Program-made: the position numbers and the translations under genes
DNA from: a virus
Reading direction: 5' to 3' (one strand)
Length of the DNA: 64,000 nucleotides
Virus record (IMG/VR): IMGVR_UViG_3300045988_112906
The notes under the pieces: generated by a model
Told to the model about the DNA's origin: nothing
Seen by the model: only the letters and a program-made list of their open reading frames with translations
Database searches by the model: none
Shown: piece by piece, positions 3,001 through 54,473 of the stretch
Layout of the letters: each line of letters opens with the position of its first letter
Position numbering within the stretch: position 1 is the first letter of the stretch

Positions 3001-6000
3001 AGGAAGCTACCAAGCAGAAGATTGAAGAAACTGTATCAGCCTTTGTTCAAGATTGGAGCTATCACGGCACATTTAACGGTCAGCCAATGAATGGCGAACA
3101 GGCTCTGTATGTACAGGATAGCAACGGAAGAACCCTTCTTGTGGGTTCGGGTGATGTCACATTCGACCAGACCAACGGCAGAGCTAAGGAAGGTGTCGGC
3201 GATATGCTCGTATGCTTCGACCCTAACACTAAGGAAATGGTCTATGTGAAAGCTGACGAGGTTACTTTCTTCCAGAATCAGCCTATCGACCAGTTTGCTG
3301 CTGAGTATCGCCAGAGATTGCAGATAAAGAACTCTGAGCCTTACAATCAGGCGGCACAGGAACAGGCGATGCAGGATGCAGCCAAGCCTCAGCAGGAGCA
3401 GGAAGCTCCGCAAGATAATACCACAAAATCGGAAGATAGTACCACAAAATCGGGTGAAAATGGCAAAGATGATACCACATCTGACACCACATCGGGCAAA
3501 AATAATACCACAAATGAGGACTTAGTACCACAAGAGCAGCCACAGCAGGAAAGCGAGGGTATGAAGCTCGAAGATGGCACTCCTGTTCCTTTTGATGCAA
3601 ACGGAGATCCTGATTTCATGAAAATGACTCCAGAGCAGGGGGCTGAGGTCTATAAGATGCTGTTTGAGGAAGATGCGCCAATGCAGATTGACAGCGACAT
3701 CAAGACCTTGGAGAAAGACTTGGAGAAGGTAAAGGCTTCCAAGTATGAAGGCGCTTCTGTTATGGAGAGAGCCGCAGCTCGTAAGAAGGTGAAGGAAGCT
3801 ATCGCACTGGCTGAGACTCAGGTGGAGAAAGCCAAGGCTATCAAGACTGCCATGGAAAAGAAGCCTGAGGCAGAGAATACCGGTGTAGGTACGGCTGAAA
3901 ACGCAGGACAATATGAAAAGGAACGTAAGCAGGGCTATCGTGAAGGTGAAGGCGGCGTTATCTATCATCGTCAGAAGCCAGAGGATGTTGGAGGTGTACG
4001 AGGCAAGGAAGTAACAGTAGCCTTCTCCCCTACCGAGAAAGTTGCAGGTCATGTTAAGCTGGTTGAGCTTGATTCTGTTCAGGCTAGCCACAACAACGGT
4101 CAGCTGAATCTTCTTCATTTCGGTCCAGACTGGCAGCCTAAGGACAGAAGCAGCCAGGCATCAAGAGTTGAGGCTGAGAAGATTGCAGGCAATATTGACC
4201 CAGAGCAGATTACTGGCAGCAACAATGCCTTCATAGGTTCGGCGCCGAGTGTGAACGAAAGACATGAAACCATCCAAGGCAACAACCGTGTGGATGCTTT
4301 GAAAGAAATGTATGCCTCTCACCCTGATCAGGCAGCCAAGTACAAGCAGTGGTTGATTGACCACGCAGCTGAGTTCGGCTTGAATGCTGAGGACATCAAG
4401 AAGATGAAGAAGCCTGTGATTGTAAACGAATTGCCTGTAGATGATGCTACTGCAAAGAAGCTGGGTCAGATGATGGCTAGCGGATTCGAGAGTGGCGGCA
4501 AGCGTATTCCTGAGGTTAGCGCTACCATCAACAAGCTTGGTGACAAGATGGAGAATCTGGCAAACGTTCTTCTTGCCGAGGGAACTCTTGGTGAGGATGC
4601 CAAGCTCAGCGACTTGATTAACCAGAACTCCAAGCGAGCTTTGGAATATCTCAACAAGAACGGATTCATAGACAATACCGAGTATGAGAATCTGGCTACC
4701 GATGTTGTTACCAGAAGACAATGGTTAGAGAATGTGTTGAAGGCTAGTCTGTTTGATGGAAACAGAAAGACAGAAGCCGCATTCAACCGATTGCCAGGCA
4801 ACGCTCAGAAGGCAGTATTGGCAACCTTCATGCGTGACAGAAACAGCAAGGCTGAGGATAGGATCAAGGAGAATATTCAGAAATCCTTTGAGGCTTACAA
4901 TGAATTGAACCAGATTGCAGGGTTCAAGAATGCCAAGAATATCGAGCAGGCAAGGGCTGCAATACAGGCGGAACTGTTAAATGGTTCTAATAATGTGTTT
5001 GGAGAGGCTTCAATTCGAGAAAAATACACTAACTTTGAACTCGAATTAGCAGCATTATACAAGGGTTTGAAAGACCAGAAGAGCCTGACAGGATTGTTTG
5101 GCGAGTTCTACAATGCCGTTCAAGGCAAGATTGGTAAGCAGCTGGATGCTTTCAGTCAGGAAAATGCTGAGCCTTTAGGTAAGGACGAGGCTATAGAAAA
5201 AGTCTTTGGAATCAATAACAAGCAAGATTATGACAGACGAAGAGAAACTGAATCTCCTTCTGAATCTGGAGGAGAAGATGGGGCTGAACCAGCAGGAGAC
5301 AGACCAGCAGAAGCAGGAGAAGGAAGAGTAAATTCTGAGGATGAAGACAAGCCAAATTCAGCAGGCTTTACTCCAAAGGAAATTAGAGATCATCAGGAAA
5401 AACTTGATAGAGCTAAGGAAAAATACGTAAAGGCTTTAAAAGAAGCCAAGAGTGAGAAGGAGATCAAAGCAGCGGAAGGTGAATTTGAGTTTGCGTATAA
5501 AGATCACCAGAATATGAACGGTGTTCTTGACGAGGCATCTGTGGCTGACATGTGGAATAAAGAACTTGAATCAGCAAAGGATTCCGTTAAGAAAGACTCA
5601 AAAGAACCGTCCGCAGATCCTATGGAAGGTTTGAAGCAGGCTGCTGACGCATTCCATGAAGAGCAGAAGCAGAAAGGTGAATTTGCCATGAACTTGAAGA
5701 TTGGCAAGGCTCGACAAGATTATGCTGCCGCCAAGGAAAGCGGTGATGCAGAGCGGACCACCACGGCTGCCAAGGAATTGAAGCATCTCTTAGACGACAG
5801 ATTGAAGCAAGAGGGTAAAGGTCTTGCTGAGAGACAGAAGATTATCGCCGAAGAGATAGGAAAGGCTGAGGCTGAGATAATCGACAAGCCTTGGGAACAG
5901 ATGGACTTGGAGGAACGAGAAGCTGTTTCTTCAAAGAACCCTCTCACGGAATCAGAGATTAACGAACTGACCTCTGAGGAAAATAAAGAATTGATACCTG

Positions 6001-7928
6001 CCGCACTCGCATATTTGCGTGGTGACAAGAGCAATATCATAAACGCAATATCTTACTTTAAAATTTGGAACGATGTTAGAAATAGACATGAGAATGTTTC
6101 CGACAATAGCGGAACAGAAAACGGAACACAGCTGGATGCTGCCGATACTACAGGCGGCGAAGGATTGGGACTGGGACGAGGACGAGAAAGCGGAAGACCT
6201 GATGGACCAGTGGATAGAGGAACAGGCAACGAAGCTGCACCCGGAGAGCGAAATGGCGGAGAGAGTAATCAGAACGACACTACTCTATCTGCTGGAGAAC
6301 AAGGCAATAAGCAAGGTGAAGGAAATTCATCCGGAGTGGGCGCAGTACCTGCCGGAGGTTCTGACACCAACGGAGGCGGTTCAGCTAGCGGAAATGGACA
6401 TGTATCTGGAGGAAGTGGACGTGAAAGCAGCAACAGACCTGCTGACACGAATGCAGGACGGAAGCCTACAGCCAAGCAAGGAACTACTTTCCCAGATAGC
6501 ACAGCAGAACGGCTAAAGCAGGAAAGAGCTGACTATGAGAAGAAGAAGAAAGACTTCTGGGCTAGATGGAAGAAGGCAGGGCAAGGCTATGCCAAGATTG
6601 CCCTGACTCCTTTCAAGAAGCTCAACCTTACACCAGAGCAAATAGAAATGCTGCCTGAGTTGGTAAAGATGCACCTTAACGGTGCTGTCTTGAAGATTAA
6701 GGAGGGTATCTACAAGTTCAACGAGTGGAAAGCTGCCATGCTTGCCGAGGAAGGCGAGGAGCTGAAAATGATAGGTCTTAGTGATGATGATATTGACAGA
6801 TTCATTGAAGACTATTGGAACACTCCTTACGAAATGGATGGTGAGACCCATACAATCAGGGAGTGGAGCAGCATCTATGGAAACCAGCATCTGAAAAAGA
6901 AGCTAAAAGAACCTCTTGAAGAGAAGTACAAGAGACAGATGGAAGCCGAACCTATCGAAGTGAAGGTGGGCGACATGAAGAACATCGAGGAGACTTTGCC
7001 TTATCTCTTGCCTCAGCAGCAGGAAGACGTATTGAAGGCTGAAACTCAGTTCTTCGGAAAGGAACATACAGACCGTGAACATGCTTACGGTAAGGGCTAT
7101 CTGTTTACCAATGGAACTGGTACTGGAAAAACATACACAGGTCTTGGCATTGCTAAGCGATTGGCTAAGCAGGGCAAAGGCAGAATACTCTTTATTACTC
7201 CTAGCCAGAAGAAGGTTTCCGACTGGATAAAGGACGGAAAGAATCTTGGTCTGGACATTAAGGATCTTGACTCCTGGGCAAAAATGCGTGGAACCACTGC
7301 TACTACAGAAAGTGGTGAAGGTATGGTAATTACTACATTTGCAAACTTTGGTCTGAATAAGAAACTTCTTGAAACAGAGTGGGATGCCGTTATCTATGAC
7401 GAGTGTCACCGTATCATGGAAAACAAGAAGGGTACTGAAACAGCCAGAAGTATGCAGCACTACATGGTTACCAATCGTGACGAGAATCATTGTTTCCAGA
7501 GATTGCAGAGCATCAACCCTGAGTATCAGAAAATGAATGGTGCTGCCGAAAAATTCGATGCGTTGCGACTAAAGGAAATCGAACGCATAAAGAAAGAGTA
7601 CAAGAATAGCCATCCAAGTGCTACAGACAGAGATGTGGATAATGCTACATTAAAGAGCCTTCCTAGAGATTTGAACAGCTTTGCCTCTGCCGACGGAATG
7701 ACTTTCCCTAAGCTTGGAAAAGCATATCAGGATTTCATCAAGGCAAGGGAAGCATATAATAAGGTAGAGCCTAAACTGAAAGAGCAGGCAAAGAGTTCGT
7801 GGAAACACACAAAAACCATATTCCTCTCCGCTACACCTTTCAATACTAGAGAGAATCTTGATTATGTTGAGGGCTATATCTTTAAGTATCCGGAAAAGGA
7901 CGAGAGAGGAATGGGTGGAAGAACCTAG
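6..7928 (+). CDS. Giant polyvalent (DarB-like) protein, part 1 (2640 aa): long unknown N-terminal region, S/T-rich and G-rich linkers, ParB/Srx-like segment, SNF2/DEAD helicase N-lobe. Ends at an in-frame TAG.
   Basis: Longest ORF, starting at ATG 6. Helicase motifs I GTGTGKT (7113), II DECH (7398) and III SAT (~7826). ParB-like IQGNNRVDAL (~4270). Same frame as 8040..14948. Confidence 0.85.
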   Translation: MADKVTSLYNALKADGLFKQARSLNDFKAKMAYQGYRSQIYKLARDKGANVGTFSQFTNALGYSSGSPKPRQSYGSYHTQQHKPAENKAMTTAQRAMQVAQEYQQTHQPTDYLHRPQNQMGRARRNAPGKASPFVQSLYEIDNAQKGPDYSVDYTSPKATQQVYQQNQQLRRQAAKTAGDHIVNDEYRRQSQPMIDNGTVGVMKPMGEIEQEMSDAADSLVASSGDFIKNSINNEYKQATLNAEKEIRSNDAMGNPFMGSSAGLISTQIANKYESPDKIMASLQNSIKKNIANILPRAREQAIRLGVSEDYYINNMVLPKMVEKAVGDFRETEVARRMPKNDLDYFVQEATSSNYLAKLGMMLLKTKSQRQFDEEALARTNEGMNPNYKPSTALRVGADVVGMVSDPIFGASAKAGGLVAGKLIGNSTKLAALMANGNLAQRLMAKGAQAVTSGGVTGFVFDSTGSVIQNYSTGEDTSLGNTLKVAAKGGATGAVNFATMSLAGIPLSEVGRSVGLTGIKGGSFWGNAGRATAKVGLESGKTYMEAMGMYLGGYVSGKLEGRTDANGKPIEFDLWNGTMESLPTAIGFRLQHAVEGLRGGRKNEKGEDMGWFGSTIANFKDFLTSDKAKESRFLMTEDERNMIFSSGAMNGLMPDGENIVSYAKRTKNKKVSYDDPYLETDASMIKNTYDQIMADSKVSWDAKAKFSAMVTGIMPSARPMMDYITFSNEDYVKDGLLRGKRKYVNEYSANGELLSKIPYDNKEDRDNVVYTHNIKRENLRLYNAMGLLARQDRNNYELQNDFFVENMKKPGADVNTLVTNMGNEGSDVFRDFSLFALNSEKGTVLKTIDSVAVRNGMKSEDLIKAMRKNPMKRTDFEQNVCVELRRALESKAFPYGKVHVEQSNLNGKDVAEDNNLGTEQPNGDAVKQELNGLRQAEEEVEVLMRDNDVFSQNFKKLQSQGLTNPQIYDWMVQQGGLTVEQLEPFAHYINANARVQGMQEATKQKIEETVSAFVQDWSYHGTFNGQPMNGEQALYVQDSNGRTLLVGSGDVTFDQTNGRAKEGVGDMLVCFDPNTKEMVYVKADEVTFFQNQPIDQFAAEYRQRLQIKNSEPYNQAAQEQAMQDAAKPQQEQEAPQDNTTKSEDSTTKSGENGKDDTTSDTTSGKNNTTNEDLVPQEQPQQESEGMKLEDGTPVPFDANGDPDFMKMTPEQGAEVYKMLFEEDAPMQIDSDIKTLEKDLEKVKASKYEGASVMERAAARKKVKEAIALAETQVEKAKAIKTAMEKKPEAENTGVGTAENAGQYEKERKQGYREGEGGVIYHRQKPEDVGGVRGKEVTVAFSPTEKVAGHVKLVELDSVQASHNNGQLNLLHFGPDWQPKDRSSQASRVEAEKIAGNIDPEQITGSNNAFIGSAPSVNERHETIQGNNRVDALKEMYASHPDQAAKYKQWLIDHAAEFGLNAEDIKKMKKPVIVNELPVDDATAKKLGQMMASGFESGGKRIPEVSATINKLGDKMENLANVLLAEGTLGEDAKLSDLINQNSKRALEYLNKNGFIDNTEYENLATDVVTRRQWLENVLKASLFDGNRKTEAAFNRLPGNAQKAVLATFMRDRNSKAEDRIKENIQKSFEAYNELNQIAGFKNAKNIEQARAAIQAELLNGSNNVFGEASIREKYTNFELELAALYKGLKDQKSLTGLFGEFYNAVQGKIGKQLDAFSQENAEPLGKDEAIEKVFGINNKQDYDRRRETESPSESGGEDGAEPAGDRPAEAGEGRVNSEDEDKPNSAGFTPKEIRDHQEKLDRAKEKYVKALKEAKSEKEIKAAEGEFEFAYKDHQNMNGVLDEASVADMWNKELESAKDSVKKDSKEPSADPMEGLKQAADAFHEEQKQKGEFAMNLKIGKARQDYAAAKESGDAERTTTAAKELKHLLDDRLKQEGKGLAERQKIIAEEIGKAEAEIIDKPWEQMDLEEREAVSSKNPLTESEINELTSEENKELIPAALAYLRGDKSNIINAISYFKIWNDVRNRHENVSDNSGTENGTQLDAADTTGGEGLGLGRGRESGRPDGPVDRGTGNEAAPGERNGGESNQNDTTLSAGEQGNKQGEGNSSGVGAVPAGGSDTNGGGSASGNGHVSGGSGRESSNRPADTNAGRKPTAKQGTTFPDSTAERLKQERADYEKKKKDFWARWKKAGQGYAKIALTPFKKLNLTPEQIEMLPELVKMHLNGAVLKIKEGIYKFNEWKAAMLAEEGEELKMIGLSDDDIDRFIEDYWNTPYEMDGETHTIREWSSIYGNQHLKKKLKEPLEEKYKRQMEAEPIEVKVGDMKNIEETLPYLLPQQQEDVLKAETQFFGKEHTDREHAYGKGYLFTNGTGTGKTYTGLGIAKRLAKQGKGRILFITPSQKKVSDWIKDGKNLGLDIKDLDSWAKMRGTTATTESGEGMVITTFANFGLNKKLLETEWDAVIYDECHRIMENKKGTETARSMQHYMVTNRDENHCFQRLQSINPEYQKMNGAAEKFDALRLKEIERIKKEYKNSHPSATDRDVDNATLKSLPRDLNSFASADGMTFPKLGKAYQDFIKAREAYNKVEPKLKEQAKSSWKHTKTIFLSATPFNTRENLDYVEGYIFKYPEKDERGMGGRT
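4040..4315 (+). other. ParB/sulfiredoxin-like domain segment inside the giant protein
   Basis: The sequence VELDSVQASHNNG...ETIQGNNRVDALKEMY resembles the ParB N-terminal pattern (I/V)xGxxRxxA. Judged by eye only. Confidence 0.4.
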
Positions 7929-8770
7929 TTCTACCTTAATCACTTTGGTGCAGCATACAAGTTCCGCTACCATCGTCTGGAGCAGAGTATCAGTAACCCG
8001 GATGCCGTAGCCAAGCAGGAGGTTGCCTTCTCTGATTACTTGCAGAACACACTTGGCACGATGAGCGGAAGAATTATTGATAGTCCTTACGACTATTCTA
8101 GAGACTTTCCTACCGTGGCTCCTGATCATGCCGAGAGTTTCAATAATGCGGTGCAGGACACATTGAAGACAAAGTATCTGCATGATGCGTACAGCAAGAC
8201 CATCGGTGATTACAACTATGGTAGTGCCCTTTTCGAGACTATGAAAGTGTCTGCTGCCATTGACAGAATCAAACAGCACTTGGATATGGGCAGAAAGGTT
8301 GTTATCTTCCATCGCCGTGTTGAGAGCAAGGAACCTTTGGAGGCTCCATTTGCTTACATGCTTAGAGTTGCCAACGAGCAGATCAAGATGATGAAACCAG
8401 GCAAGGAGCGTGACGAATACATCAAGGAATGCACCGAGTTCCGAAACAAGTATGCAGACCTTCTGGAATGGGAGAAGACTCTTGACTACAGTATGCCAAG
8501 AGAACAGATTGCCAAGGTGTTTGGCGAGAAGAATGTGTTGTTCTTCAGCGGAAAGGAAAGCAAGAAGGTGAAGGATAAGGCGGTTGATACATTTAATGAT
8601 GATGATAGCGGCAAGAATATCATCGTGATTCAGGAAGCTTCAGGAAAGGAAGGAATCTCACTTCATGATACCACAAGCAAGCACCAGCGTGTCTGCATCA
8701 CTCTCGCATTGCCTCAGAGTCCTATCACAGCCTTGCAGATTGAAGGTCGCATTTACCGTATCGGTAATAT
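7113..8770 (+). other. SNF2/DEAD-like helicase core (motifs I-VI) spanning the TAG at 7926
   Basis: Motifs I-III lie upstream of the TAG and motifs IV-VI lie downstream of it. Confidence 0.7.
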
Positions 8771-11700
8771 GAGCAATGCCATCTTTGAGTACCCTATCTT
8801 GGGTCTCAACTCTGAAATGATGCTTTTTGGAGAAAAGTTCAATAATCAGGTAAGTACTACCGAGAACCTTGCATTGGGCAGTCAGGCAAGAAACTTGCGT
8901 GACAGTTTCGCTAATGGTATCTTGGAACATAGCGGTATTGTACCGGTAGAGAACCAGGGTGTAGGCGGAAAGGAGTTTGACGCAGCAACACCAAGTGAGA
9001 ATGACCCATTCGATAATGCGGTGCTTGATTATTACAGCAATCAGAAACTTAATAAGAACAATCGTGAAGGTAGCGACTACTTCCCTACTCCTGAACCTCT
9101 TGGCTACAAGATGGTAGAATGGGCTGGCTTGGGTGAAGGTGACTCTGTATTGGAGCCTAGTGCCGGTCATGGAGCCATCGCAAGATACGTGCCTAAGACT
9201 AACGAAATGGTAAGCATCGAACCTAGTCAAAGTCTCTTCACGAAGTTGCAGTTGAAGGCTGGCGGTTTGGGTAGAAAGTTCTTAAACAATACGTTTGAGA
9301 ACTATGCGCTGAACAACAAGCACGATGTAATTGTAATGAATCCTCCTTTCGGCAAGGCTGGTGCATTGGCTATCCAGCATGTTGACAAGGCTTTCAAGCA
9401 CTTGGATGAAGGAGGTCGTATCGTAGCAATCATACCTAGAGGCTCAACAGACAAGAAGTTTGACAAGTGGTATAACGAGCAGAAGAACGTTGCCATGCGT
9501 GCTGAGGTAAATCTGCCTGATATCCTTTTCCAGCAGGCAGGAACCAGAGTTGCATGCCGAGTAGTTGTATTGGATAAGATTTCCGATGCTGCTTTGAGAA
9601 GCAAGGCAGGTTATCCTGAAAAGATTGATCTGAGCGGTCATTACGATAAGATTGAAGATTTCTTCAATGACCTCCGAGATATTGAAATGCCTGAGCGCAT
9701 CATTGATACGAATCTCAAAATGCAGAAGAAAGCCAAGGCTGCTGTCAAGGATATTATGGAAATCAAGGGCGTGAAAAACGTTTCTTATGGTAAGACTGGT
9801 ATTGATGTTTCTTTGACTGGTTCTTGGATGAACTACGGAATATCTTTCACTGGTAGTGACAAACCGAACTACTGGAGAGATAAGATGGCTAACTATTATA
9901 CCAAATATGATGAGCTTCAAAAGCTGGAGTATCAGGAAAACAAGCAGTCGGTGTTTGATGAGTTGAAGAAACTGTCTTGCAAGCTTGCCGGTATGACAGA
10001 GGATGAAATGCAGAGATATATCGCATCAAAGACCAACGGCAGCACCCACTTCCGTATGGAACTAGGCAAGACATTCTCAGACTCCAAGGAGAACTTTGAT
10101 GGAGTAAGAGACAGAGCAGTAGAGGAAAAAGGCATTGTCATGCCTAACCTGAATAAGGAAAGCGTTAATGTTGTGCCGGTGGAAAAACATAGCTTTGGAG
10201 TTACCGAGAATGAGATATTGACAAATGCAAAGGCATGGGCGAAAGATAATCTTGTAACTACAGGAAAATCGGAATTGCCTACAATGCGTGATGGAACGCC
10301 TTATACTATTAGTAAAAAGGCTGTTGAAAAATACTTGTCTGAGAGTGCTGTAAAGAAGAGCGATGGTCTTGATATTCATCTTTCCGTTCTTCCAAAGCTT
10401 ACAGATGTTATTCATGAAAGCATTGAAGCTGAGATTCATCCAGACTACAATAAGGACGAAGACGGAAATCGCAGCATCGAAAATGGGCACGGTGACAATA
10501 TTTTGGTCCATCGTTTGTATGGTGCTGTACAATTGGACGGTAAGACGTACCGAGTAAAAACAACCATGCAAGAGTTCAGAGGTGGTGAAGAAAACAAGCC
10601 TCATAGTTATGAGGTAACAAAAATAGAGTTGCTGGAAGGCTCCAAGACAGCGAACGAATCCGACAGTCTCCCTTTGAGCAGTGCAACCAACAACTCTGAA
10701 AATGAGTTACTTGGCTCCCCTGGAGAGCGAGAGAATCCCGACAAACCACATTCGGATGCACCAAGCAACTCTATTTCTGTTGCAAAGTTACTAAATGGAG
10801 TTGAGAAATCATACGATTCTGGGAAGAAATTGCTTGAAGAAAGCAAAAATTTAACAGATGAAGATACTTATTTTAGAAATGATAACGATTCACCCGTATC
10901 AATTTCTAAGGATGCTCCTGTTGTAGTAAAGCATGTGGCGAAGGTTGCAAAGGCTACTGGCGGCAAGGTGAAGATGTTGCAAAGTGTCGAAGAAGTTACC
11001 AATGCCGAGGCTAAGACAAGACTTGAAAAGGGTGAAAAGGTAGAAGGATGGTACGATGAACGCACAGGTGAAGTTGTGCTGTATATGCCAAACGTACATG
11101 ACAGCTACACAGCTGAGAAAACGGTATGGCATGAAATCGTAGGTCATAAAGGCATGCGTGAACTGTTCGGTAACGACAACTACGACAAATTCCTTGATGA
11201 TATTTACTTCAATCTTGATAAGCCGGAATACGCCGATCTTAAAAAGCTCGTCATGAAGGAACTACAGTACAATCCATTCGATTACAGAAATGCCATCGAA
11301 GAGGCTATTGCTAGAATGGCGGAAGAGGGACATGGCGAGCATGGTCTTTGGAATAACCTGAAAAACAAGGTAGCAAATATCTTTAGAGAAATCGGCTACC
11401 GTGTGGCGCCGAACACAAAGGACATTAAGTATCTCTTATGGCTCGCCAAGAATTACTCCAAGCATCCTGAGAGTGATGGTTACTTTGCTATCAGAAGAAA
11501 TGCCTTGCTGCATAAGTTAGAGAAAGATAATACGCCTAGCATCGTGGATAGAAACGGAATGTACTTTGATAATGATGGAAAGAACCATGATTATCTGCTA
11601 GACTTGAACCATAAGGACTTCGAGGAGGCTACCGATGGAAAAGTGCATTTCCGCACCTCCCCTATGACTGCATCTAAGATTGAGGAGTATAACCGCAGAC

Positions 11701-14700
11701 TCGGAACAAAACTCTATGCTTTCAAGGAAAGTTCCGTTGATAATATGCAGTCTTTGCAAGAGGCTATGGAAATAATCTCTGGTGAAAAGAATGCGTGGAC
11801 GGATATTCCTTCTGCCTTCAATCCATTGCAGGCGCAGAACCGCATTGATAGTATCGTACAGCAAAAGGCAGAAGAGTATGACGATAAATACACGAAGCCT
11901 CTTGATGATTCTTTCAAGAAAGTTGTATCTACCATGAGCGGTAGCGATAAGGATGAGCAGTTGAGAAACGCACAGATCTATATGATTACCAAGCATGGTT
12001 TGGAGCGTAACCGTGTATTCTTTGTTCGTGACGCAATTCGGGATATGATGAATGGCGATGTTACGAAAGCAAAGACATTGATGAAGGACTGGAACGACAA
12101 GCAGAAGGATTTGGCTGACGAACTAGAGAAAGGCAACATCAGATTTGATGAGTACCTGGAGCAAATGGACGAATGGATTCGTAGCAACGTGGACGTTAAC
12201 TTTGTTGCTGACGAACACGATTATTCTGGATTCCATGGTATGCAAAATATAGCCAAGACCTCTGATCCATACGACGACAAGCTTGCCATTGACAACGTGA
12301 TGAGTGCAGAAAGCCAGATGGGTAGCGATTTGGCAAAAGACTTCTGGATAAAGAAGAAGGCTGCAACAGATTACGTTATCGACCAAGAATACTACAACGG
12401 CTTTATTGATCAATCTGATAGAGATTATCTAAAGGGAATGTTCCAATGGTATGTGCCTCTTAGAAAGTTTGATGATACAACCGCAGAAGATGTGTATGGT
12501 TATATCGGAGAAAAGGGAGATCCTTCCAACTTTGTTGGTCCTGTATTGGCAAATGCAAAGGGAAGAAGCAGTCTGAGCGACATTAATGTTATGGCTCAAA
12601 TATCCGCCATGGCAAAGTCTTCGCTTATCAATGGTGGAAAGAATGTAGTAAAGCAGTACTTTGCCAGATTTGTTTCTGCCTATGAAACTGGTAATACAAA
12701 AGATAAAATCTTTGTTGAAGTGAATCCTTGGCTAGAGAAGCACGTGGTAGATGGTAAAGAAGTTTGGGAAGAGGTTACACCTCAAATTCCGGAGAACGCC
12801 ACACAGCAGCAAATAAGCGATATACTGCAAAACTTTGAGGACAGCATGCAGGCGAAGAAAGCAACTGGTGATGCAAAGCTTTCACACAGAAAGCCTAACA
12901 TTGGCTTTAAATTCCAGCGTGCCAAGGATAAGTCTGAACATATCATTGATGTGTATATCGCAGGAAGGAAAAGAAGCTTTGTCTGTCAGGGTAACCCAAG
13001 AGCAGCCCAAGCACTCAATGGTCTTTTGAAAGATTCAGGAACCAGAAATGCGGTAACGCAATTTGATGCGAAGGTTACGAGAAAAATTGCCCAATTCAAT
13101 ACATCGCTGAATCCAGACTTTATGATGTCTAATATGTTGCGTGACTTAACTTTTGCATCAGCCAATGTTACCAAGGAAGGATTTAGCTACACCAAGGACT
13201 TCTTGAAAGAATATGCAGGAAACATGATTTCTATCAAGAACGGAAAAGGTAGTGGAAACTATCTTACTATGTTCCGCAAGTATAGAGACGGTAAGCTTGA
13301 TACAAATAATGAACGAGAAAGAATGTTCAAAGAGTTTATGGACAATGGCGGTCAGACTGGTTTTGTTCAAATCAAGAAACTGGAAAGCCTGATTGAGGAA
13401 TATGATAACCTGATCAAGAAAGGAAGTAAGGATGCAGACGGATGGTTTGTCAAGAAAATCAAGGAAGGTGGAACCTTTATTGAGACTGCCAACGAGATTA
13501 TTGAAAACGTAGCTCGCTACTCTACTTACTGTACTTCACGAAAGCACGGAAGAAGCGTAGGACGAAGTATCTATGATGCCAAGGAGGTTTCAACAAACTT
13601 CAACCGGCACGGTTCTGGAGATGCCATCAAGACCTTGAAAACTTCAAATGATAGCAATATTGATAAGAAATTCCGTGGTACTCTCGGTTTCTTCAATAGC
13701 TGGATGAAGAATCATACGCAGTTCTATAACGCCGGCGTGCAAGGTGCAAATCTGTTTTTCAAGAACTATAAGAGTGCATGGAAGACTTCTGCCGTTTCAT
13801 TCGGTATGTTACCTTTAGGACTCGGTATTGCTCAGGCGTTAATCAATCAATACCTGATTAATAATGAGGACGAGAAGGACAGAAAGGGCGTGAAGGATCC
13901 ATACGCAGAGTTACCAGAATGGAAACGCAGAAATAATATCTGTATCTATACTGGGCACGGAAACTTTAAGACTATTCCTATTGCCATCGAGTTAAGAGCG
14001 TTCTTCGGGTTGGGCGATATTGCGGCTGGCTATGTTGTGAATGATAAGTTGAAGAGTAGTACGCCTATCGGTTATGATATTTTGGGACAGATGGCACAAT
14101 TAGTACCAGCCTCTGATTTCCTTGGACACCATTCGCCAAGCAACAACATTAAGGAACTTGGAGAGGATGCAATACTTGCAGTAACTCCAACAACCATATC
14201 TCCTGCTATGGAACTTGCCTTCAATCGAGACTGGACAGGCAGACCTTTCTATCGTGATTATGACTATCTTGATAAGGCTCCAAGATGGAAGAGGGCATAC
14301 GATAACACCAATAGTATTTATATGAGTATTAATAAATGGGCTAACCAAGGCACAAATGGTATTGATAGTTCTAATGCAGACATGAAGGGAAATGAAACTC
14401 TTGATTATCTTACTGCACCTTACGCTTGGCAACATTTGATAGATAGTTACACCGGTGGCATGGGTTCAACTATTGGCAGAACTTACAAAACGTTAGAAGC
14501 TGTTGGTAAGGGCGTTGTATCTGGAGCAAAGAACAAAGAAGGATTCAGCAAGGGCTTCTCTGATGAATTTGAAAAGTTTGATAAAAATCAAATCCCTCTT
14601 TACAGGGTGTTTAACTATACTCCTAAAGAGGGGCAAGACATGCAGCGAACTAGATCGAAATGGTATAACTATTCCGACGAGTTGAAGCAGACGGAATATA

Positions 14701-14948
14701 ATATTAAGCAGTTGAAGACTAACACGCCTGATGTTTTGAAGAACATGGAGAACAATGCCAAGAAGTTCAACTTTACTCATAGCAAAGAAGGAAAGGCGTA
14801 TAATATATGGAATGCAGCAGATAATTATATCCAGAAGAAGAAAAAAATCTTAAAAAGAGTATCTGATCCGGAAGTAATCAAGTCAATTAACGAAGACATC
14901 AATCGAAAGATGCAAGAAGCGGTGAATGATTTGGATAAGCTAAATTAA
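8040..14948 (+). CDS. Giant polyvalent protein, part 2 (2302 aa as tracked): helicase C-lobe, N6-adenine DNA methyltransferase, zincin-like motif, long C-terminal region.
   Basis: Same frame as 6..7928. The frame is open from 7929, and the first in-frame ATG is at 8061. Motifs: VVIFHRR, QEASGKEGISLHD, QIEGRIYRIGN (8736), VLEPSAGHGAI (9147), NPPF (9339), HEIVGH (11130). Confidence 0.85.
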   Translation: MQNTLGTMSGRIIDSPYDYSRDFPTVAPDHAESFNNAVQDTLKTKYLHDAYSKTIGDYNYGSALFETMKVSAAIDRIKQHLDMGRKVVIFHRRVESKEPLEAPFAYMLRVANEQIKMMKPGKERDEYIKECTEFRNKYADLLEWEKTLDYSMPREQIAKVFGEKNVLFFSGKESKKVKDKAVDTFNDDDSGKNIIVIQEASGKEGISLHDTTSKHQRVCITLALPQSPITALQIEGRIYRIGNMSNAIFEYPILGLNSEMMLFGEKFNNQVSTTENLALGSQARNLRDSFANGILEHSGIVPVENQGVGGKEFDAATPSENDPFDNAVLDYYSNQKLNKNNREGSDYFPTPEPLGYKMVEWAGLGEGDSVLEPSAGHGAIARYVPKTNEMVSIEPSQSLFTKLQLKAGGLGRKFLNNTFENYALNNKHDVIVMNPPFGKAGALAIQHVDKAFKHLDEGGRIVAIIPRGSTDKKFDKWYNEQKNVAMRAEVNLPDILFQQAGTRVACRVVVLDKISDAALRSKAGYPEKIDLSGHYDKIEDFFNDLRDIEMPERIIDTNLKMQKKAKAAVKDIMEIKGVKNVSYGKTGIDVSLTGSWMNYGISFTGSDKPNYWRDKMANYYTKYDELQKLEYQENKQSVFDELKKLSCKLAGMTEDEMQRYIASKTNGSTHFRMELGKTFSDSKENFDGVRDRAVEEKGIVMPNLNKESVNVVPVEKHSFGVTENEILTNAKAWAKDNLVTTGKSELPTMRDGTPYTISKKAVEKYLSESAVKKSDGLDIHLSVLPKLTDVIHESIEAEIHPDYNKDEDGNRSIENGHGDNILVHRLYGAVQLDGKTYRVKTTMQEFRGGEENKPHSYEVTKIELLEGSKTANESDSLPLSSATNNSENELLGSPGERENPDKPHSDAPSNSISVAKLLNGVEKSYDSGKKLLEESKNLTDEDTYFRNDNDSPVSISKDAPVVVKHVAKVAKATGGKVKMLQSVEEVTNAEAKTRLEKGEKVEGWYDERTGEVVLYMPNVHDSYTAEKTVWHEIVGHKGMRELFGNDNYDKFLDDIYFNLDKPEYADLKKLVMKELQYNPFDYRNAIEEAIARMAEEGHGEHGLWNNLKNKVANIFREIGYRVAPNTKDIKYLLWLAKNYSKHPESDGYFAIRRNALLHKLEKDNTPSIVDRNGMYFDNDGKNHDYLLDLNHKDFEEATDGKVHFRTSPMTASKIEEYNRRLGTKLYAFKESSVDNMQSLQEAMEIISGEKNAWTDIPSAFNPLQAQNRIDSIVQQKAEEYDDKYTKPLDDSFKKVVSTMSGSDKDEQLRNAQIYMITKHGLERNRVFFVRDAIRDMMNGDVTKAKTLMKDWNDKQKDLADELEKGNIRFDEYLEQMDEWIRSNVDVNFVADEHDYSGFHGMQNIAKTSDPYDDKLAIDNVMSAESQMGSDLAKDFWIKKKAATDYVIDQEYYNGFIDQSDRDYLKGMFQWYVPLRKFDDTTAEDVYGYIGEKGDPSNFVGPVLANAKGRSSLSDINVMAQISAMAKSSLINGGKNVVKQYFARFVSAYETGNTKDKIFVEVNPWLEKHVVDGKEVWEEVTPQIPENATQQQISDILQNFEDSMQAKKATGDAKLSHRKPNIGFKFQRAKDKSEHIIDVYIAGRKRSFVCQGNPRAAQALNGLLKDSGTRNAVTQFDAKVTRKIAQFNTSLNPDFMMSNMLRDLTFASANVTKEGFSYTKDFLKEYAGNMISIKNGKGSGNYLTMFRKYRDGKLDTNNERERMFKEFMDNGGQTGFVQIKKLESLIEEYDNLIKKGSKDADGWFVKKIKEGGTFIETANEIIENVARYSTYCTSRKHGRSVGRSIYDAKEVSTNFNRHGSGDAIKTLKTSNDSNIDKKFRGTLGFFNSWMKNHTQFYNAGVQGANLFFKNYKSAWKTSAVSFGMLPLGLGIAQALINQYLINNEDEKDRKGVKDPYAELPEWKRRNNICIYTGHGNFKTIPIAIELRAFFGLGDIAAGYVVNDKLKSSTPIGYDILGQMAQLVPASDFLGHHSPSNNIKELGEDAILAVTPTTISPAMELAFNRDWTGRPFYRDYDYLDKAPRWKRAYDNTNSIYMSINKWANQGTNGIDSSNADMKGNETLDYLTAPYAWQHLIDSYTGGMGSTIGRTYKTLEAVGKGVVSGAKNKEGFSKGFSDEFEKFDKNQIPLYRVFNYTPKEGQDMQRTRSKWYNYSDELKQTEYNIKQLKTNTPDVLKNMENNAKKFNFTHSKEGKAYNIWNAADNYIQKKKKILKRVSDPEVIKSINEDINRKMQEAVNDLDKLN
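9147..9353 (+). other. N6-adenine methyltransferase catalytic region (SAM-binding motif I and NPPF motif IV)
   Basis: LEPSAGHGAI together with VIVMNPPFGKAG. Confidence 0.75.
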
Positions 14949-14955
14949 AAGTAAA

Positions 14956-14978
14956 GGAGCGGGCATTAAGCTCGCTCC
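14956..14978 (+). terminator. Hairpin just after the giant gene's stop codon
   Basis: GGAGCGGGC-ATTAA-GCTCGCTCC forms a 9-bp stem (one G-U pair) 8 nt after the TAA. The T-tract is weak. Confidence 0.5.
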
Positions 14979-15019
14979 TATCATTATACTATAACGAAAC
15001 TTCCCATTGTAGTGATATA

Positions 15020-15454
15020 TTACTTTTTGACAGGAGCTTTGTTCTCTTCATTAATTGTATTGTTATCAAACAGAACATCCCATCCGCTTACACCATCTGA
15101 TTTTAAGAAAAATAGACAGGCAAACAAAATAGCTACTTGAAAAGCATTTACTGTCATCTGATGAAAGGCAATACGGTATTCGCCATCACAGAGAATGAAT
15201 GATGCAATGATGTTAACGACAACCATAGCCAAATATCCATACAAGCCTATCTTCTTGGCAGAGCAAAGCATGATCAGGAAATAAACCACAGCTGCTCTTG
15301 CTATAATTTCATACACTCCAGCAGCAAGCGACACCTCATCTTGACTGATATTCATTATGCTTAAGAATATACCTAAGCCACTGTTGAGAATACCGAGTAT
15401 AAGGATGCATTCTGTAAACCCATTTAAACGAGCTGTTTTCTTTTTCTGTTCCAT
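15020..15454 (-). CDS. Small integral membrane protein (about 4 TM helices)
   Basis: ORF with a hydrophobic helix pattern. It is the last gene of the leftward three-gene cassette. Confidence 0.7.
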   Translation of the reverse strand: MEQKKKTARLNGFTECILILGILNSGLGIFLSIMNISQDEVSLAAGVYEIIARAAVVYFLIMLCSAKKIGLYGYLAMVVVNIIASFILCDGEYRIAFHQMTVNAFQVAILFACLFFLKSDGVSGWDVLFDNNTINEENKAPVKK

Positions 15455-15465
15455 AATTCTATATT

Positions 15466-15903
15466 TTAAAAATTCAAATATGTTAAATAAAATGTTCCAA
15501 AAACTAATCCGTTAGCATCTATATAATTGTATTTAAATTTAAGACCTACTTGTTTCATAAACCATCTAAATTCGGAGCGCTTCATATTATAAGCACCAGA
15601 GTCTATCATCTTTCTCTGTTCTTCGTTCATGTCGTCCTTAACTTCGCTCAATATTTCATTTCTTTCTTGCAGTGAATAATCATTCCTGTCTAACGTCAGA
15701 TGGAAATTGTATGTCCAAACCCAATTTAGAAAGACCACCGATGTTAATGTCGTGTAATCATCTATGTACATTGGGAGCTGCTGGTTGAATTCCCTTGCAG
15801 TCTTTATAAATAAATTTTTTGCTCTTTGCTTTTCTTGTACTGTCTGTCCAAAAGAAAACAGGCTTGCAAAAAGCAAAGCGAGTGCTAATGCAAATTTCTT
15901 CAT
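15466..15903 (-). CDS. Secreted protein with an N-terminal signal peptide
   Basis: The N-terminus MKKFALALALLFASLFSFGQ looks like a signal peptide. A TATTTTTG box lies upstream. Confidence 0.7.
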   Translation of the reverse strand: MKKFALALALLFASLFSFGQTVQEKQRAKNLFIKTAREFNQQLPMYIDDYTTLTSVVFLNWVWTYNFHLTLDRNDYSLQERNEILSEVKDDMNEEQRKMIDSGAYNMKRSEFRWFMKQVGLKFKYNYIDANGLVFGTFYLTYLNF

Positions 15904-15934
15904 ACCGTTATTTTTTTATTCGTTAATCTTCGTG

Positions 15935-15942
15935 CAAAAATA
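15935..15942 (-). promoter_or_regulatory. Bacteroidota-type -7 box (TATTTTTG)
   Basis: Matches the TAnnTTTG consensus about 30 nt upstream of ATG 15903. Confidence 0.5.
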
Positions 15943-16035
15943 CTAAAAATATTAATAGGGTGTATCTTTAAAGTGCAACTTTCTTTATAGTTTAGACAAA
16001 AACAAAATAAGGTGAGCACCTGCCCACCTTATTTA

Positions 16036-16768
16036 TTATATAACCTTCAATAACTCTTCAAACTTATCATCATACCATCGTGGCTGCGTCTCACTCTGGT
16101 TCTTTGGAGATACCTGGTTCTCTCCATAAGACTTACCCTTCTCGGTAATCACCTTGAACTTGTGAATCCTTGTGGTTCCCTGTCGGGTCTCCTCTTTCAA
16201 GAAGCCAAGCTTAACCATCTGCTGGTTGAACTTCAATGCCGACATCTTGGATCCAAAGCGTTTCAACAGTTCTGATGCCGAGTGCATCACTCCCTTGCTA
16301 GCAACATAGTCTGGGGATGGCAAGCCAAGAGGTTCTGCTACCTTCTGCATCAATGCAAGCGTTGATGAATCGCTGAGGTTAAGGATTCGCTTGCAGCCTT
16401 CCACCCACATCATACCAGCCTCTACTCTATCCTTGATTACATTCGTGACAGAATAGCATCCTGTGCGGCGGATAGACTTCAAGATTTCCTTCACTCCCTT
16501 CTTGAACTGCTTAGCTTGCGGTTTACGACTCTGCATCAAAACTTCGTAAAGACCATCCTCGGTGAGGAACCAAGTCTCACCCTGACGCCCTAAGTTGAAC
16601 TTAGACCGTTCATCCTCATCAACTCTTGTGATCATGTCGGAAACATTCGAAAGTTCCAACCACTCTGCAACATCGTTTGCCTTAAACAATGGGTTCTCGG
16701 CGTTACCATACACATCAATCTCCTTACCAAGGAAAGTTGACTTGCTAATCAAACTGATTTCGTTCATA
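16036..16768 (-). CDS. Bro-N domain antirepressor-like protein
   Basis: The N-terminus (MNEISLI...FGKEIDVYGNAENPLFKANDVAEWLE...WFLTEDGLYEVLMQSRKPQAKQFKKGVKEILKSIRRTG) follows the Bro-N pattern. ATG 16768 is preferred over the tracked start at 16821. Confidence 0.75.
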
Positions 16769-16919
16769 ATAATATATTTTAAAATTCTACTTCCAATGAA
16801 AGGGCATAAGAAATGCCCCATCCGCTAGTGTGAGAGGTGCAGACAGGGCATTATATTTTATATGATGAAATCCATTGATTCTGTGTCTGTTTGTGCCTCT
16901 CACCTCACGAACTTACGAG

Positions 16920-16929
16920 TGCAAAGATA
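16920..16929 (-). promoter_or_regulatory. -7 box 10-mer TATCTTTGCA driving the leftward cassette
   Basis: The reverse complement of tgcaaagata is TATCTTTGCA. The same 10-mer occurs at 43509, 59485, 59548(-) and 63921. Confidence 0.55.
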
Positions 16930-17101
16930 GTACGATTTTTCGGGATAAGCGCAATTTTAAAAGTTAAGAAATCCATACGATATAAACCAGTCAATAACTG
17001 TTCGACGACAGTTCTATGTATTATCTCAAAAATCACCTTTATTTATCGGTACTTCACATCATTTAACAGTTTCAAAAATTCATATTTTAGTCGTATGGTG
17101 C

Positions 17102-17956
17102 TTGGCGGCTGGATTGACCTTCTCGCCTAACGTGAGCGGACAGAAGAATCCTTACTTAGATGCCGTGGGCTGTATGTCGCAGCTTGTGCCGGTGATGGAC
17201 TATCTCGGCAACTCTTCGGCTGGTAAGGAGCCATTGAACGAGACGATCAAGGCTTTCTCTCCTTCTGCCCTATCTCCTTTCGTGGAATGGGAGTTAAATA
17301 CCGACTGGAAGGGTGCGCCAATTGAAAGACGTGGTGACTGGAATGAAAATTCCCCTGCTTGGCAGAGAGCCTACAAGGGCACGCCTGACGGATATATGGC
17401 TGTGAATAAATGGGTGAATGCCCAGACCAACGATGTAGCCAAGGGCAACGAGGATATGCTGGGCAACAGTTTCCTGGATATGGCAACGAACCCTAGTATG
17501 CTGAATCACTACATCGGTGGTATCGGTGGCGGTGCTGCTACGTTTACAGAGCGACTTATCGGTGTTATCAAGCATGGAAACGATACGGAAACCAAGGATA
17601 TTCCTTTCCTTCGATCGCTGCTTTATACGCCTAACGAGCAGAGCAGTTTGCAGAGAACCAAGAGCAAGTGGTATAACTACAAGGATGAAATGGAGAAGAC
17701 GATGGCGAACGTGGACCGCCTGAAATCGAAGAACGTTCCGCTGGATAAGAGAATCACAAATATCGGTGAGTATTATCAATTCCAGAACTCCAAGGAGGCT
17801 GCCAAGGTTAGGGTGATAGAACTGGCTGAGAAGCAGATGAAGCGATGGAAGAAGATGAGGGATAAGGCGAGCGATACCGAAAGCATCAACTTCGCCAATC
17901 AGAATATTGATAGGATCATGATGGATGCGGTGGATGAGCTGGATAGGCTGGAATAA
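17102..17956 (+). CDS. Orphan, diverged copy of the C-terminal ~285 aa of the giant protein (possibly a remnant)
   Basis: Colinear similarity to residues encoded at ~14020-14948: QLVP, DWxGxP, AWQRAY/RWKRAY, NKWxN, YxGGxGG, QRT(K/R)SKWYNY, AVxELDxL. There is no ATG at the boundary (TTG instead). A terminator follows. Confidence 0.6.
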   Translation: MAAGLTFSPNVSGQKNPYLDAVGCMSQLVPVMDYLGNSSAGKEPLNETIKAFSPSALSPFVEWELNTDWKGAPIERRGDWNENSPAWQRAYKGTPDGYMAVNKWVNAQTNDVAKGNEDMLGNSFLDMATNPSMLNHYIGGIGGGAATFTERLIGVIKHGNDTETKDIPFLRSLLYTPNEQSSLQRTKSKWYNYKDEMEKTMANVDRLKSKNVPLDKRITNIGEYYQFQNSKEAAKVRVIELAEKQMKRWKKMRDKASDTESINFANQNIDRIMMDAVDELDRLE

Positions 17957-17966
17957 TATGAAATGA

Positions 17967-17999
17967 GGAGTGGGCGCTTGAGTGCTCACTCCTTCTTTT
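17967..17999 (+). terminator. Rho-independent-type terminator
   Basis: A GGAGTGGGC...GCTCACTCC hairpin followed by TTCTTTT. Confidence 0.6.
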
Positions 18000-18032
18000 G
18001 GGGACTCAGCATGGAATGCTGAGGAACGGGGG

Positions 18033-18419
18033 CTAGAGGGAGCTTTTCTTGCTGGCGGCGGCTTGGCAGAGGGAGCCTAAGAGATAGCAGGGTTCTTCGG
18101 TGTACATATTTATCAGGAACTGCTCGGATATGTGCTGAACTACATGGAGCATTTCGTGGGTAAGGCTATTCGTATACTCCCCTTTTGAGGTGGTCCAGCT
18201 TATTACTACTATCGTTTTTCTAGTGTCTATGTTGGAATAGGTGATGCCTTTGTTGGGTTCACCTTCGAGCACGAGATTACAGGCATCTTCGAGAGGAATG
18301 CCGCTGCATCCCAAATCCCGAAGATGCCTTCTTACCTTCATGGCATCCTTTGAGTGAACATCGTACATTACGTGTACGGTCCAGTCGTATCTATCTATGT
18401 AAATCTCCTGCTCTGTCAT
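18033..18419 (-). CDS. Small HExxH (HEMLH) metallopeptidase-like protein
   Basis: 128-aa ORF containing LTHEMLHVVQH. Confidence 0.6.
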   Translation of the reverse strand: MTEQEIYIDRYDWTVHVMYDVHSKDAMKVRRHLRDLGCSGIPLEDACNLVLEGEPNKGITYSNIDTRKTIVVISWTTSKGEYTNSLTHEMLHVVQHISEQFLINMYTEEPCYLLGSLCQAAASKKSSL

Positions 18420-18422
18420 ATT

Positions 18423-18848: not shown

Positions 18849-18893
18849 TTTAAGAAAGGGGTATGCCCACTTTTGAGCACACCCCCAAACTAG

Positions 18894-19169: not shown

Positions 19170-19197
19170 AAGATTTTAAAAGTGAATAGATAGGAGA

Positions 19198-19698: not shown

Positions 19699-19728
19699 AA
19701 TGTAATCTCCTATTATCTATTCTGTTTG

Positions 19729-20073: not shown

Positions 20074-20088
20074 AGCAGCCTCCTTTCT

Positions 20089-21093: not shown

Positions 21094-21137
21094 AATAAAT
21101 GATAGATTAATCGTTTCGTTCACTATTGAACTTGGTG

Positions 21138-21320: not shown

Positions 21321-21341
21321 CAGGAAAAATCGCTTAAAATT

Positions 21342-32240: not shown

Positions 32241-32251
32241 ATATTTATGGA

Positions 32252-54471: not shown

Positions 54472-54473
54472 GA

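What the first reader, a model, noticed from the sequence alone, without database searches (positions are those of the whole stretch)
14020..17956. Orphan diverged 3' module of the giant gene, separated from it by an opposite-strand cassette
ORF 17102..17956 is colinear with the last ~285 residues of the giant protein. Shared blocks include QLVP, DWxGxP, (A/R)W(Q/K)RAY, NKWxN, YxGGxGG, IPxxR, QRT(K/R)SKWYNY and AVxELDxL. By eye, well under half the residues are identical. Homology begins abruptly at 17100 with no ATG, directly after an AT-rich stretch. Between the two copies lie three leftward genes with their own promoter box (15020-16929). This layout resembles the displaced orphan C-terminal modules found downstream of polymorphic toxin and tail-fibre genes. 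It implies that a recombination event brought in a new 3' end plus cargo and displaced the old 3' end.
Basis: seen in the sequence. Interest (0 to 1): 0.6.

Follow-up and report, generated by a model that had tools for sequence, protein, structure and literature searches.

The report
Leftover tail of a replaced giant gene
The 284-codon reading frame is the leftover 3' end of the giant anti-defence gene that most relatives of this Segatella (Prevotella) gut phage carry, stranded when the whole 15-17 kb gene was swapped for a very different version; it is an ordinary recombination scar, not a new gene.

Summary
ORF 17102-17956 aligns colinearly with the last 308 residues of the giant gene (34% identity, E 2e-52). 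It starts about 41 residues inside the Pfam LPD38 domain.

Relatives decide what it is.
- In 78 of 80 related viral contigs and 3 of 3 MAG contigs, this same sequence (65-99% aa identity) is the true end of an unbroken giant ORF of about 5,770 aa. I call this allele A.
- The window carries a different allele, B (4,938-4,980 aa). B is 34-45% identical to A at the two ends and not alignable with it in the middle.
- Seven B genomes show three relic states: 284 codons (3 genomes), 137 codons (3) and no relic (1).

The whole giant gene was replaced, together with half of the upstream gene. It was not just the 3' module. The right-hand join is illegitimate.

The relic has no start context and no Bacteroidetes-type promoter box. 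It shares no nucleotide homology with the resident 3' end. Nearly all of its variants also occur in intact A alleles, so it appears to be refreshed by recombination with A phages.

It is most likely a non-functional scar. The Rhs/CDI orphan-cassette analogy fails the tests made here. RNA data could not be obtained.

Earlier notes of this scan on the same genome had flagged this stretch and the amber codon.

The parts
6..14948 (+). Giant polyvalent-protein gene, allele B (ddrB-ParB, SF2 helicase, N6-MTase-like, LPD3, HExxH, LPD38). One frame of 4,980 codons, cut by an amber codon at 7926-7928.
   Evidence: It is uninterrupted (4,938 aa) in relative G003. TAG is CAG in six B relatives.
14019..14948 (+). 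Resident 3' module of allele B (giant residues 1994-2302), the part colinear with the relic.
   Evidence: 34% identity, E 2e-52. 94-96% identical in L087-L092.
13866..14031 (+). Island of nucleotide similarity between alleles A and B (72-79% identity) that ends where the relic begins.
   Evidence: window 13866-14031 matches L001 9848-10013, and the relic starts at L001 9995.
14955..14979 (.). Hairpin just after the giant gene's stop codon.
   Evidence: Read from the sequence (AGGAGCG...CGCTCCT).
15020..15454 (-). 144-aa cargo ORF, hydrophobic (by eye probably a membrane protein), no family hit.
   Evidence: Absent from all 86 related loci.
15466..15903 (-). 145-aa cargo ORF with an N-terminal signal-peptide-like stretch. 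A TAnnTTTG box lies at 15935-15942 (-).
   Evidence: A 90%-identical homologue lies directly downstream of a 5,826-aa A-like giant gene in L184.
16036..16821 (-). Bro-N / Ant-like anti-repressor gene, with a terminator hairpin at 16005-16034 and a TAnnTTTG box at 16922-16929 (-).
   Evidence: 99% identical in L006 (downstream of an intact A gene), L019 and L021.
16757..17094 (.). Conserved right end of the cargo slot, found whatever the cargo is.
   Evidence: It is present in L006, L014, L025, L089 and L019/L021, and it continues into a hairpin (agtcgtggtacgact) in the genomes that lack the relic.
17095..17100 (.). Illegitimate junction (filler/microhomology 'atggtg') between the cargo-slot end and codon ~5484 of allele A.
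   Evidence: The junction is identical in L019/L087 and L021/L088.
17102..17956 (+). Relic: the last 284 codons of allele A of the giant gene, truncated about 41 residues inside LPD38.
17967..17999 (+). Hairpin plus T-run, the native terminator of allele A, conserved with A genomes.
   Evidence: Sequence. Homology to A loci runs through 17999.

Best explanation
17102-17956 is a non-functional relic. It is the last 284 codons of the common allele (A) of a giant virion-type polyvalent (DarB-like) protein gene.

A recombination between two related Segatella phages replaced about 17 kb of the A-type genome. The replaced stretch ran from the middle of the gene upstream of the giant gene to codon ~5484 of the giant gene. 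It was replaced by a divergent allele B with a different middle set of enzyme domains, plus the cargo that sits downstream of B.

The left crossover was homologous and left an in-frame chimeric upstream gene. This is shown in the relative G003 and lies outside the window. The right join was illegitimate, between the conserved end of the cargo slot and the interior of the A gene. The distal A fragment and its terminator therefore stayed behind.

Shown: the relic's identity with intact A 3' ends, the graded relic sizes, the junction sequences and the lack of a promoter box. Inferred: the order of events, that the relic is silent, and that its intact-looking frame is kept by recency and by repeated recombination with co-circulating A phages.
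For: 1. The same sequence is the true 3' end of an open frame that runs off the start of the fetched DNA (up to 3,333 codons) in 78/80 viral loci. It is the end of a 5,767-codon ORF in G002 and is intact in 3/3 Segatella/Tannerellaceae MAG contigs.
2. Only L019 and L021 share the window's layout, and they have a base-identical junction.
3. B-allele genomes show relics of 284 codons (window, L087, L088), 137 codons (L090-L092, a second junction) or none (L089). The relic is therefore dispensable.
4. The relic begins 41 residues inside LPD38.
5. No ATG/GTG/TTG lies between the upstream stop (16958-16960) and 17102. No plus-strand TAnnTTTG box lies between 14949 and 17102. The neighbouring genes are on the other strand.
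6. Of the window relic's 62 differences from the A consensus, 60 also occur in intact A alleles. The L019 relic is 99-100% identical in DNA to the intact 3' end of L007, yet only 90-95% identical to the window's relic. This indicates exchange with A phages rather than selection on the relic.
7. No A genome carries a B remnant.
8. Both flanks of the B segment are shared with A genomes.
Against: - The relic frame has no stop or frameshift over 284 codons, and a TTG (17102) or ATG (17174) could start translation.
- Only four private mutations exist (3 non-synonymous, 1 synonymous). That is too few to show relaxed selection (Fisher p = 0.63).
- A second, independent isolated fragment with nearly the same start (A residue 5462) exists in a bacterial contig, L177. 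This is an unexplained coincidence.
- The 37 further viral matches that were not returned could not be inspected.
Confidence: 0.85

Rival explanations
1. The fragment is an expressed stand-alone gene. It would be a C-terminal LPD38/coiled-coil protein that works on its own, for example in packaging or ejection of the giant protein, or as a decoy.
For: The frame is intact over 284 codons and the native terminator is retained. The last ~100 residues are predicted as confident helices. An isolated similar fragment exists in bacterial contig L177.
Against: It is absent or half-length in 4 of 7 B genomes. It starts inside the Pfam domain. There is no promoter box and no ATG at the homology start. 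Short database homologues were contig-end or frameshift artefacts, apart from L177. Its variation is imported from intact A alleles.
Confidence: 0.07
2. The fragment is a silent cassette of the Rhs/CDI orphan type. It would be kept so that recombination with the resident gene can swap the 3' module.
For: The layout looks similar: full gene, intervening genes, then a 5'-truncated alternative end. Orphan Rhs modules are known to be activated by recombination (PMC3967940).
Against: The relic and the resident 3' end share no usable DNA homology: longest exact match 11 nt, best local hit 32 nt at 81% identity with E 0.038. No B::A chimeric giant gene occurs among 80 loci. There is no toxin domain and no immunity-like gene downstream. 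The C-terminal region is among the better conserved parts between the alleles, not a hypervariable tip. There is no recombination hot spot at the module boundary among A alleles.
Confidence: 0.03
3. The layout is a metagenome assembly chimera that joins a B phage and an A phage, or it is an in-situ tandem duplication that later diverged.
For: A and B phages probably co-occur in gut samples. The window's own assembly is not held, so reads could not be checked.
Against: The identical junction occurs in two other, separately assembled contigs, and a second junction type occurs in three more. The two sides of the junction share no repeat on which an assembler could switch. Duplication followed by divergence cannot explain 93-99% identity of the relic to intact genes in other genomes alongside 34% identity to its neighbour.
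Confidence: 0.03

Closest known systems
Recombination scars of phage mosaicism
   Same: A junction between two genome segments of different ancestry falls inside a coding region and leaves a truncated gene fragment beside a functional replacement. The flanks are shared with a large pool of related phages.
   Different: The replaced unit is unusually large, a single gene of 15-17 kb. The relic is seen in three decay states, and it is visibly overwritten by exchange with the intact allele pool.
Phage-type polyvalent proteins (Iyer, Burroughs, Anand, de Souza & Aravind 2017, PMC5512222) and P1 DarB/DdrB; virion protein gp47 of phi24B with LPD38 (bioRxiv 10.64898/2026.04.10.717836)
   Same: Both alleles combine ddrB-ParB, an SF2 helicase and LPD38 in one giant protein encoded among virion genes. 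[quoted passage not shown] PHROG 10089 'DarB-like antirestriction' and Bacteroides phage BKO1-TP3 DarB-like give weak hits.
   Different: Those papers describe domain shuffling across families. Here two alleles, with shared ends and non-homologous middles, replace each other on one phage backbone and leave a relic. Anti-restriction activity and packaging were not tested.
Orphan C-terminal toxin modules of Rhs and CdiA (e.g. Koskiniemi et al. 2014, PMC3967940)
   Same: A 5'-truncated alternative 3' end lies downstream of the full-length gene, separated from it by other genes.
   Different: The relic shares no homology stretch with the resident gene, has no toxin domain and has no cognate immunity gene. 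It is not a variable tip. It is lost or halved in sister genomes.

Membership tests
Phage-type polyvalent protein with C-terminal LPD38 (relic as a fragment of one) | Significant match to Pfam LPD38 (PF18857) above the gathering score | tested here: met
   Relic 54.7 bits (cut-off 27), giant 94.1 bits, allele A 89.3 bits.
Phage-type polyvalent protein with C-terminal LPD38 (relic as a fragment of one) | The domain is part of a multi-domain giant protein encoded among virion genes | tested here: met
   In 78/80 relatives the relic's sequence ends an ORF of >3,000 codons; it ends a 5,767-aa ORF in G002. SU10-type capsid and P22-type portal genes are in the window. In the window itself the relic is detached.
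Phage-type polyvalent protein with C-terminal LPD38 (relic as a fragment of one) | Protein is packaged in the virion and injected; anti-restriction activity | not testable with these tools
   This rests only on analogy with P1 Dar proteins and phi24B gp47.
Rhs/CdiA-type orphan C-terminal cassette | The orphan keeps a stretch of the conserved core-coding DNA, homologous to the main gene, that allows recombinational switching | tested here: not met
   Longest exact match between 13800-14948 and 17000-17956 is 11 nt. The best local match is 32 nt at 81% identity, E 0.038.
Rhs/CdiA-type orphan C-terminal cassette | Variable toxin tip demarcated from a conserved body, followed by a cognate immunity gene | tested here: not met
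   No toxin family hit. The C-terminal 1,340 aa are the best conserved part between the alleles (45% identity) while the middle is unalignable. The relic is followed by a terminator and then an unrelated opposite-strand block.
Conserved stand-alone gene | Present with its own start and the same boundaries in related genomes | tested here: not met
   It is stand-alone only in the window, L019 and L021. It is half-length in L090-L092, absent in L089, and part of the giant ORF everywhere else.

The most novel reading that the evidence does not exclude
The relic is not just debris. The position about 40 residues into LPD38 may be a preferred breakpoint or module boundary. Two observations point that way. 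Two independent isolated fragments start within 22 codons of each other: the window at A residue ~5484, and bacterial contig L177 at 5462, next to tRNA-Arg. Both abut the only sizeable island of A/B nucleotide similarity in the last 10 kb of the gene. The retained fragment could also serve as a homology arm that keeps B phages exchanging DNA with the A-phage pool right up to the junction. The Mantel-type scan among A alleles showed no dip in linkage at this position, which argues against a general hot spot.
Probability: 0.08. Interest if true: 0.5.

Novelty: new member of a known kind. Interest (0 to 1): 0.33.

Why it matters
This is a clean, datable example of how phages swap a whole giant anti-defence gene as one cassette. 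The two alleles keep the same N- and C-terminal parts but carry different enzyme domains in the middle. The swap happened on an otherwise shared backbone of abundant human-gut Segatella phages.

The relic gives the polarity of the event (A was there first). It also shows that truncated fragments can look intact simply because they keep recombining with intact alleles. That is a caution for annotators and for dN/dS-based calls of function.

It does not reveal a new mechanism.

Tried and rejected
1. Phage GenBank collection: megablast of 13000-19000 found nothing, and tblastn found only a 25%-identity DarB-like hit.
2. The window's own assembly is not held.
3. A second viral scan with an A+B alignment returned the same 80 loci and no more distant alleles.
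4. Short database homologues were followed up as possible stand-alone genes.
   - P0003, P0007 and P0012 are cut by contig ends.
   - P0013 comes from a frameshift.
   - P0004 comes from an in-frame TAG.
   - Only P0008/L177 is truly isolated.
5. Selection test on private mutations: 3 non-synonymous to 1 synonymous in relics, against 93 to 77 singletons in intact alleles. This is not significant.
6. Recombination hot spot at the relic's start among 73 A alleles: no dip in the correlation of flanking distances at L001 position ~9995 (r about 0.7). Dips lie elsewhere, at ~7800-7900 and ~8900-8960.
7. AlphaFold2 of the last 421 aa of allele A with 12 sequences: mean pLDDT 41.9, with only the last ~100 residues confident. 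No fold search was made.
8. Inverted repeats around the flipped block 18000-21353: none convincing.
9. An attP-like copy of the tRNA-Arg 3' end in the window: none.
10. tRNA or suppressor tRNA in the window: none.
11. PADLOC hits for the cassette genes and the relic: none.
Full report
**1. What is in the sequence**

The plus strand carries one very long frame, 6-14948. It has 4,980 codons and is interrupted only by a TAG at 7926-7928.

Pfam finds these domains in it:
- ddrB-ParB;
- an SF2 helicase, with ResIII/DEAD before the TAG and Helicase_C after it;
- a weak small-methyltransferase match;
- LPD3;
- LPD38 at residues 1953-2156 of the second half.

By eye there is also an HExxH motif (HEIVGH).

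Downstream lie three minus-strand ORFs:
- 15020-15454: 144 aa, hydrophobic;
- 15466-15903: 145 aa, with a signal-peptide-like N-terminus;
- 16036-16821: 261 aa, Bro-N / anti-repressor Ant family.

Bacteroidetes-type -7 boxes (TAnnTTTG) lie on the minus strand at 15935-15942 and 16922-16929.

Then comes ORF 17102-17956 (284 aa). It starts with TTG, and its first ATG is at 17174. A hairpin plus T-run follows at 17967-17999.

**2.

BLASTP aligns the 284-aa ORF colinearly with giant residues 1994-2301. Identity is 34%, positives 50%, E = 2e-52.

- Both sequences match Pfam LPD38. The ORF matches only profile positions 71-189 of 189, whereas the giant matches positions 2-176.
- Both match the C-terminus of PHROG 14770.
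- At the DNA level the two copies are essentially unrelated. The longest exact match is 11 nt.

**3. Relatives identify the ORF**

A scan of IMG/VR with the 284-aa sequence gave 117 relatives, of which 80 loci at 83-99% identity were returned.

- In 78 of the 80, the frame containing the match stays open to the start of the fetched DNA, up to 3,333 codons. The 600 residues just upstream are 46-48% identical to the window's giant protein.
- In G002 the gene is a single 5,767-codon ORF. It carries ddrB-ParB, a Strawberry-notch-type helicase and LPD38 at residues 5443-5653.
- The relic therefore starts at about residue 5484 of this 'allele A', 41 residues inside LPD38.
- Three contigs in Segatella copri, Candidatus Segatella violae and Tannerellaceae MAGs also have it as the end of a long open frame.
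- Only L019 and L021 have the window's layout: 12 open codons upstream, the window-type giant gene at 96-100% identity, and the Bro gene at 99%.

**4. The window's giant gene is a different allele throughout**

- Allele B is 4,938 aa and uninterrupted in the close relative G003.
- Against allele A it shows 34% identity over residues 1-1,490 and 45% over the last ~1,340. There is no alignment over the ~2,150 to 2,950 residues between, apart from one short 114-residue match at 29% identity.
- The two alleles thus share their end regions and differ in the middle enzyme set.
- At the DNA level the window and A-type L001 are unrelated from the start of the stretch that can be compared (about window 4000) to 17096. 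The exceptions are two short islands, 11952-12032 and 13866-14031. From 17097 onward they are 88% identical for more than 7 kb.
- Upstream, in G003 against G002 and G004, homology returns at G003 position ~7709. That is inside the gene preceding the giant gene. This gene is 486 aa in G003 and 441 aa in G002; the first ~258 residues are shared and the rest is divergent.

The replaced unit is therefore the C-terminal half of the upstream gene plus the entire giant gene. The left junction lies about 0.7 kb outside the window and is seen only in the relative.

**5. The relic is dispensable and decays**

Seven genomes carry allele B.

| Genomes | Relic state |
|---|---|
| Window, L087 (=L019), L088 (=L021) | 284 codons, identical junction ...attttagtcgt / atggtg / cttggcggctgg... 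|
| L090, L091, L092 | Only codons 148-284, behind a second, shared junction |
| L089 | None; the cargo-slot end abuts the next gene block |

In genomes without a relic (L006, L014, L025, L089), the cargo-slot end continues as a hairpin...agtcgtggtacgactgggcttatggtatgagc.... The window's junction cuts in this hairpin and shares an ATGGT with both partners. I read this as an illegitimate join helped by microhomology. That reading is an inference.

No A genome carries a B remnant. This gives the polarity: the backbone to the right of the junction once carried allele A.

**6. Why the frame still looks intact**

- The window's relic differs from the A consensus at 62 positions, and 60 of these variants also occur in intact A alleles. 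For L019 the figures are 43 of 44.
- The L019 relic is 99-100% identical in DNA to the intact 3' end of L007. The window's relic is closest to other alleles (L009, L006, L002).
- The two relics are only 90-95% identical to each other, although they share the junction. Their differences begin 12 nt after it.
- The simplest reading is repeated homologous exchange with co-circulating A phages, running up to the edge of homology. The window encodes a RecT protein at 53569-54483.
- The low apparent dN/dS between relics is therefore no evidence of function.
- Private changes are 3 non-synonymous to 1 synonymous. This fits neutrality but is far too few to test.

**7. Expression**

- No start codon lies between the upstream stop (16958-16960) and 17102.
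- No plus-strand TAnnTTTG box lies between the giant gene's stop and the relic.
- The neighbouring genes on both sides are on the minus strand. On the left are the three cassette genes. On the right is the block that starts at 18033.
- I infer that the relic is transcriptionally isolated.

**8. The cargo is not one unit**

- The Bro module with its upstream region (15894-17094) is 94% identical in L006, where it lies downstream of an intact A gene. Diverged Bro alleles sit in the same slot in L014, L025, L090 and L092.
- The 144/145-aa pair is absent from all 86 fetched relatives. L019 instead has a 182-aa secreted protein and a 312-aa HExxH protein there.
- A 90%-identical homologue of the 145-aa protein lies directly downstream of a 5,826-aa A-like giant gene in L184.
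- The space after the giant gene is therefore a general cargo slot.

**9. Comparison with known things**

The giant proteins fit the phage-type polyvalent proteins of Iyer et al. (PMC5512222). That paper lists ddrB-ParB and LPD38 as confined to phage versions. A recent preprint finds an LPD38-bearing giant protein in phi24B virions.

The relic fits the familiar class of gene fragments left by illegitimate recombination in mosaic phage genomes. That comparison is from my own knowledge.

The Rhs/CDI orphan-cassette analogy fails on each tested feature:
- no shared DNA for switching;
- no chimeras;
- no toxin or immunity pair;
- a conserved rather than variable C-terminus.

**10. Open points**

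- An isolated A-type fragment (A residues 5462-5766, 76% identity) lies directly after tRNA-Arg(TCT) and a terminator in an 87-kb bacterial contig. Ordinary chromosomal genes lie on both sides, and no other similarity to the window was found.
- Its start is within 22 codons of the window relic's start, and both lie at the end of the A/B nucleotide island. I could not explain this coincidence.
- A scan for a recombination boundary among A alleles was negative.
- The structure prediction was too poor to say whether the cut falls inside a fold.

**11. Verdict**

The 'displaced old 3' end' reading is right. The scale of the event was underestimated, because the whole gene was replaced and not only a module. 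The toxin-orphan analogy does not hold.

This is a well-documented but ordinary recombination scar, in a phage group whose members turn up in Segatella MAG bins.

Noticed in passing
window 7926-7928: A single in-frame TAG splits the SF2 helicase of the giant gene. All six B-allele relatives have CAG (Gln) there, and G003 has an uninterrupted 4,938-aa frame. No tRNA gene is in the window. It looks like a private nonsense mutation or a read error, as earlier notes of this scan also concluded.
   Followed up: yes
window 18000-21353: This six-gene block (d128, DUF7841 and others) has the opposite orientation in many close relatives (L003, L006, L019, L021, L089-L091). It has the window's orientation in others (L001, L092). 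No flanking inverted repeats were found, and the DNA beyond the block differs between genomes.
   Followed up: partly
L177 9730-10783 (ENA ERZ26859184 NODE_80, 87 kb): A bacterial contig carries an isolated 305-codon A-type 3' fragment (76% identity) immediately after tRNA-Arg(TCT) and a terminator hairpin. Housekeeping genes lie on both sides. It may be a remnant of an integrated element.
   Followed up: partly
L178 2183-2266 (Logan SRR29027572 contig): An A-like giant gene has an in-frame TAG 362 codons before its end, at a position that is Gln in allele B. This is a second, independent amber codon in this gene family. The cluster of the 362-aa product has 36 member sequences.
   Followed up: no
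window 14949-16024; L019 7349-8920; L184 361-1612: The slot just after the giant gene holds different small secreted or membrane cargo genes in different genomes. The window has a 144-aa and a 145-aa ORF. L019 has a 182-aa ORF and a 312-aa HExxH peptidase-like ORF. L184 has ORFs of 145, 135 and 132 aa.
   Followed up: partly
L093 (G003) 6934-8394 vs L094 (G002) 10269-11594, just left of the window: The gene upstream of the giant gene is chimeric between A and B genomes. About 258 N-terminal residues are shared and the C-terminal halves are unrelated. This marks the left crossover of the allele swap.
   Followed up: yes
window 10665-10699: Alignment with L019 overlaps here. Read by eye, the window's giant protein has an extra ~26-residue Ser/Asn-rich insert (EGSKTANESDSLPLSSATNNSENELL) relative to L019. 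This is a local repeat or indel difference inside the giant gene.
   Followed up: no
window 53569-54483 and 30519-35236: The window encodes a RecT recombinase, an SU10-type major capsid protein and a P22-type portal. This fits a podovirus-like phage with its own single-strand-annealing recombination system.
   Followed up: no
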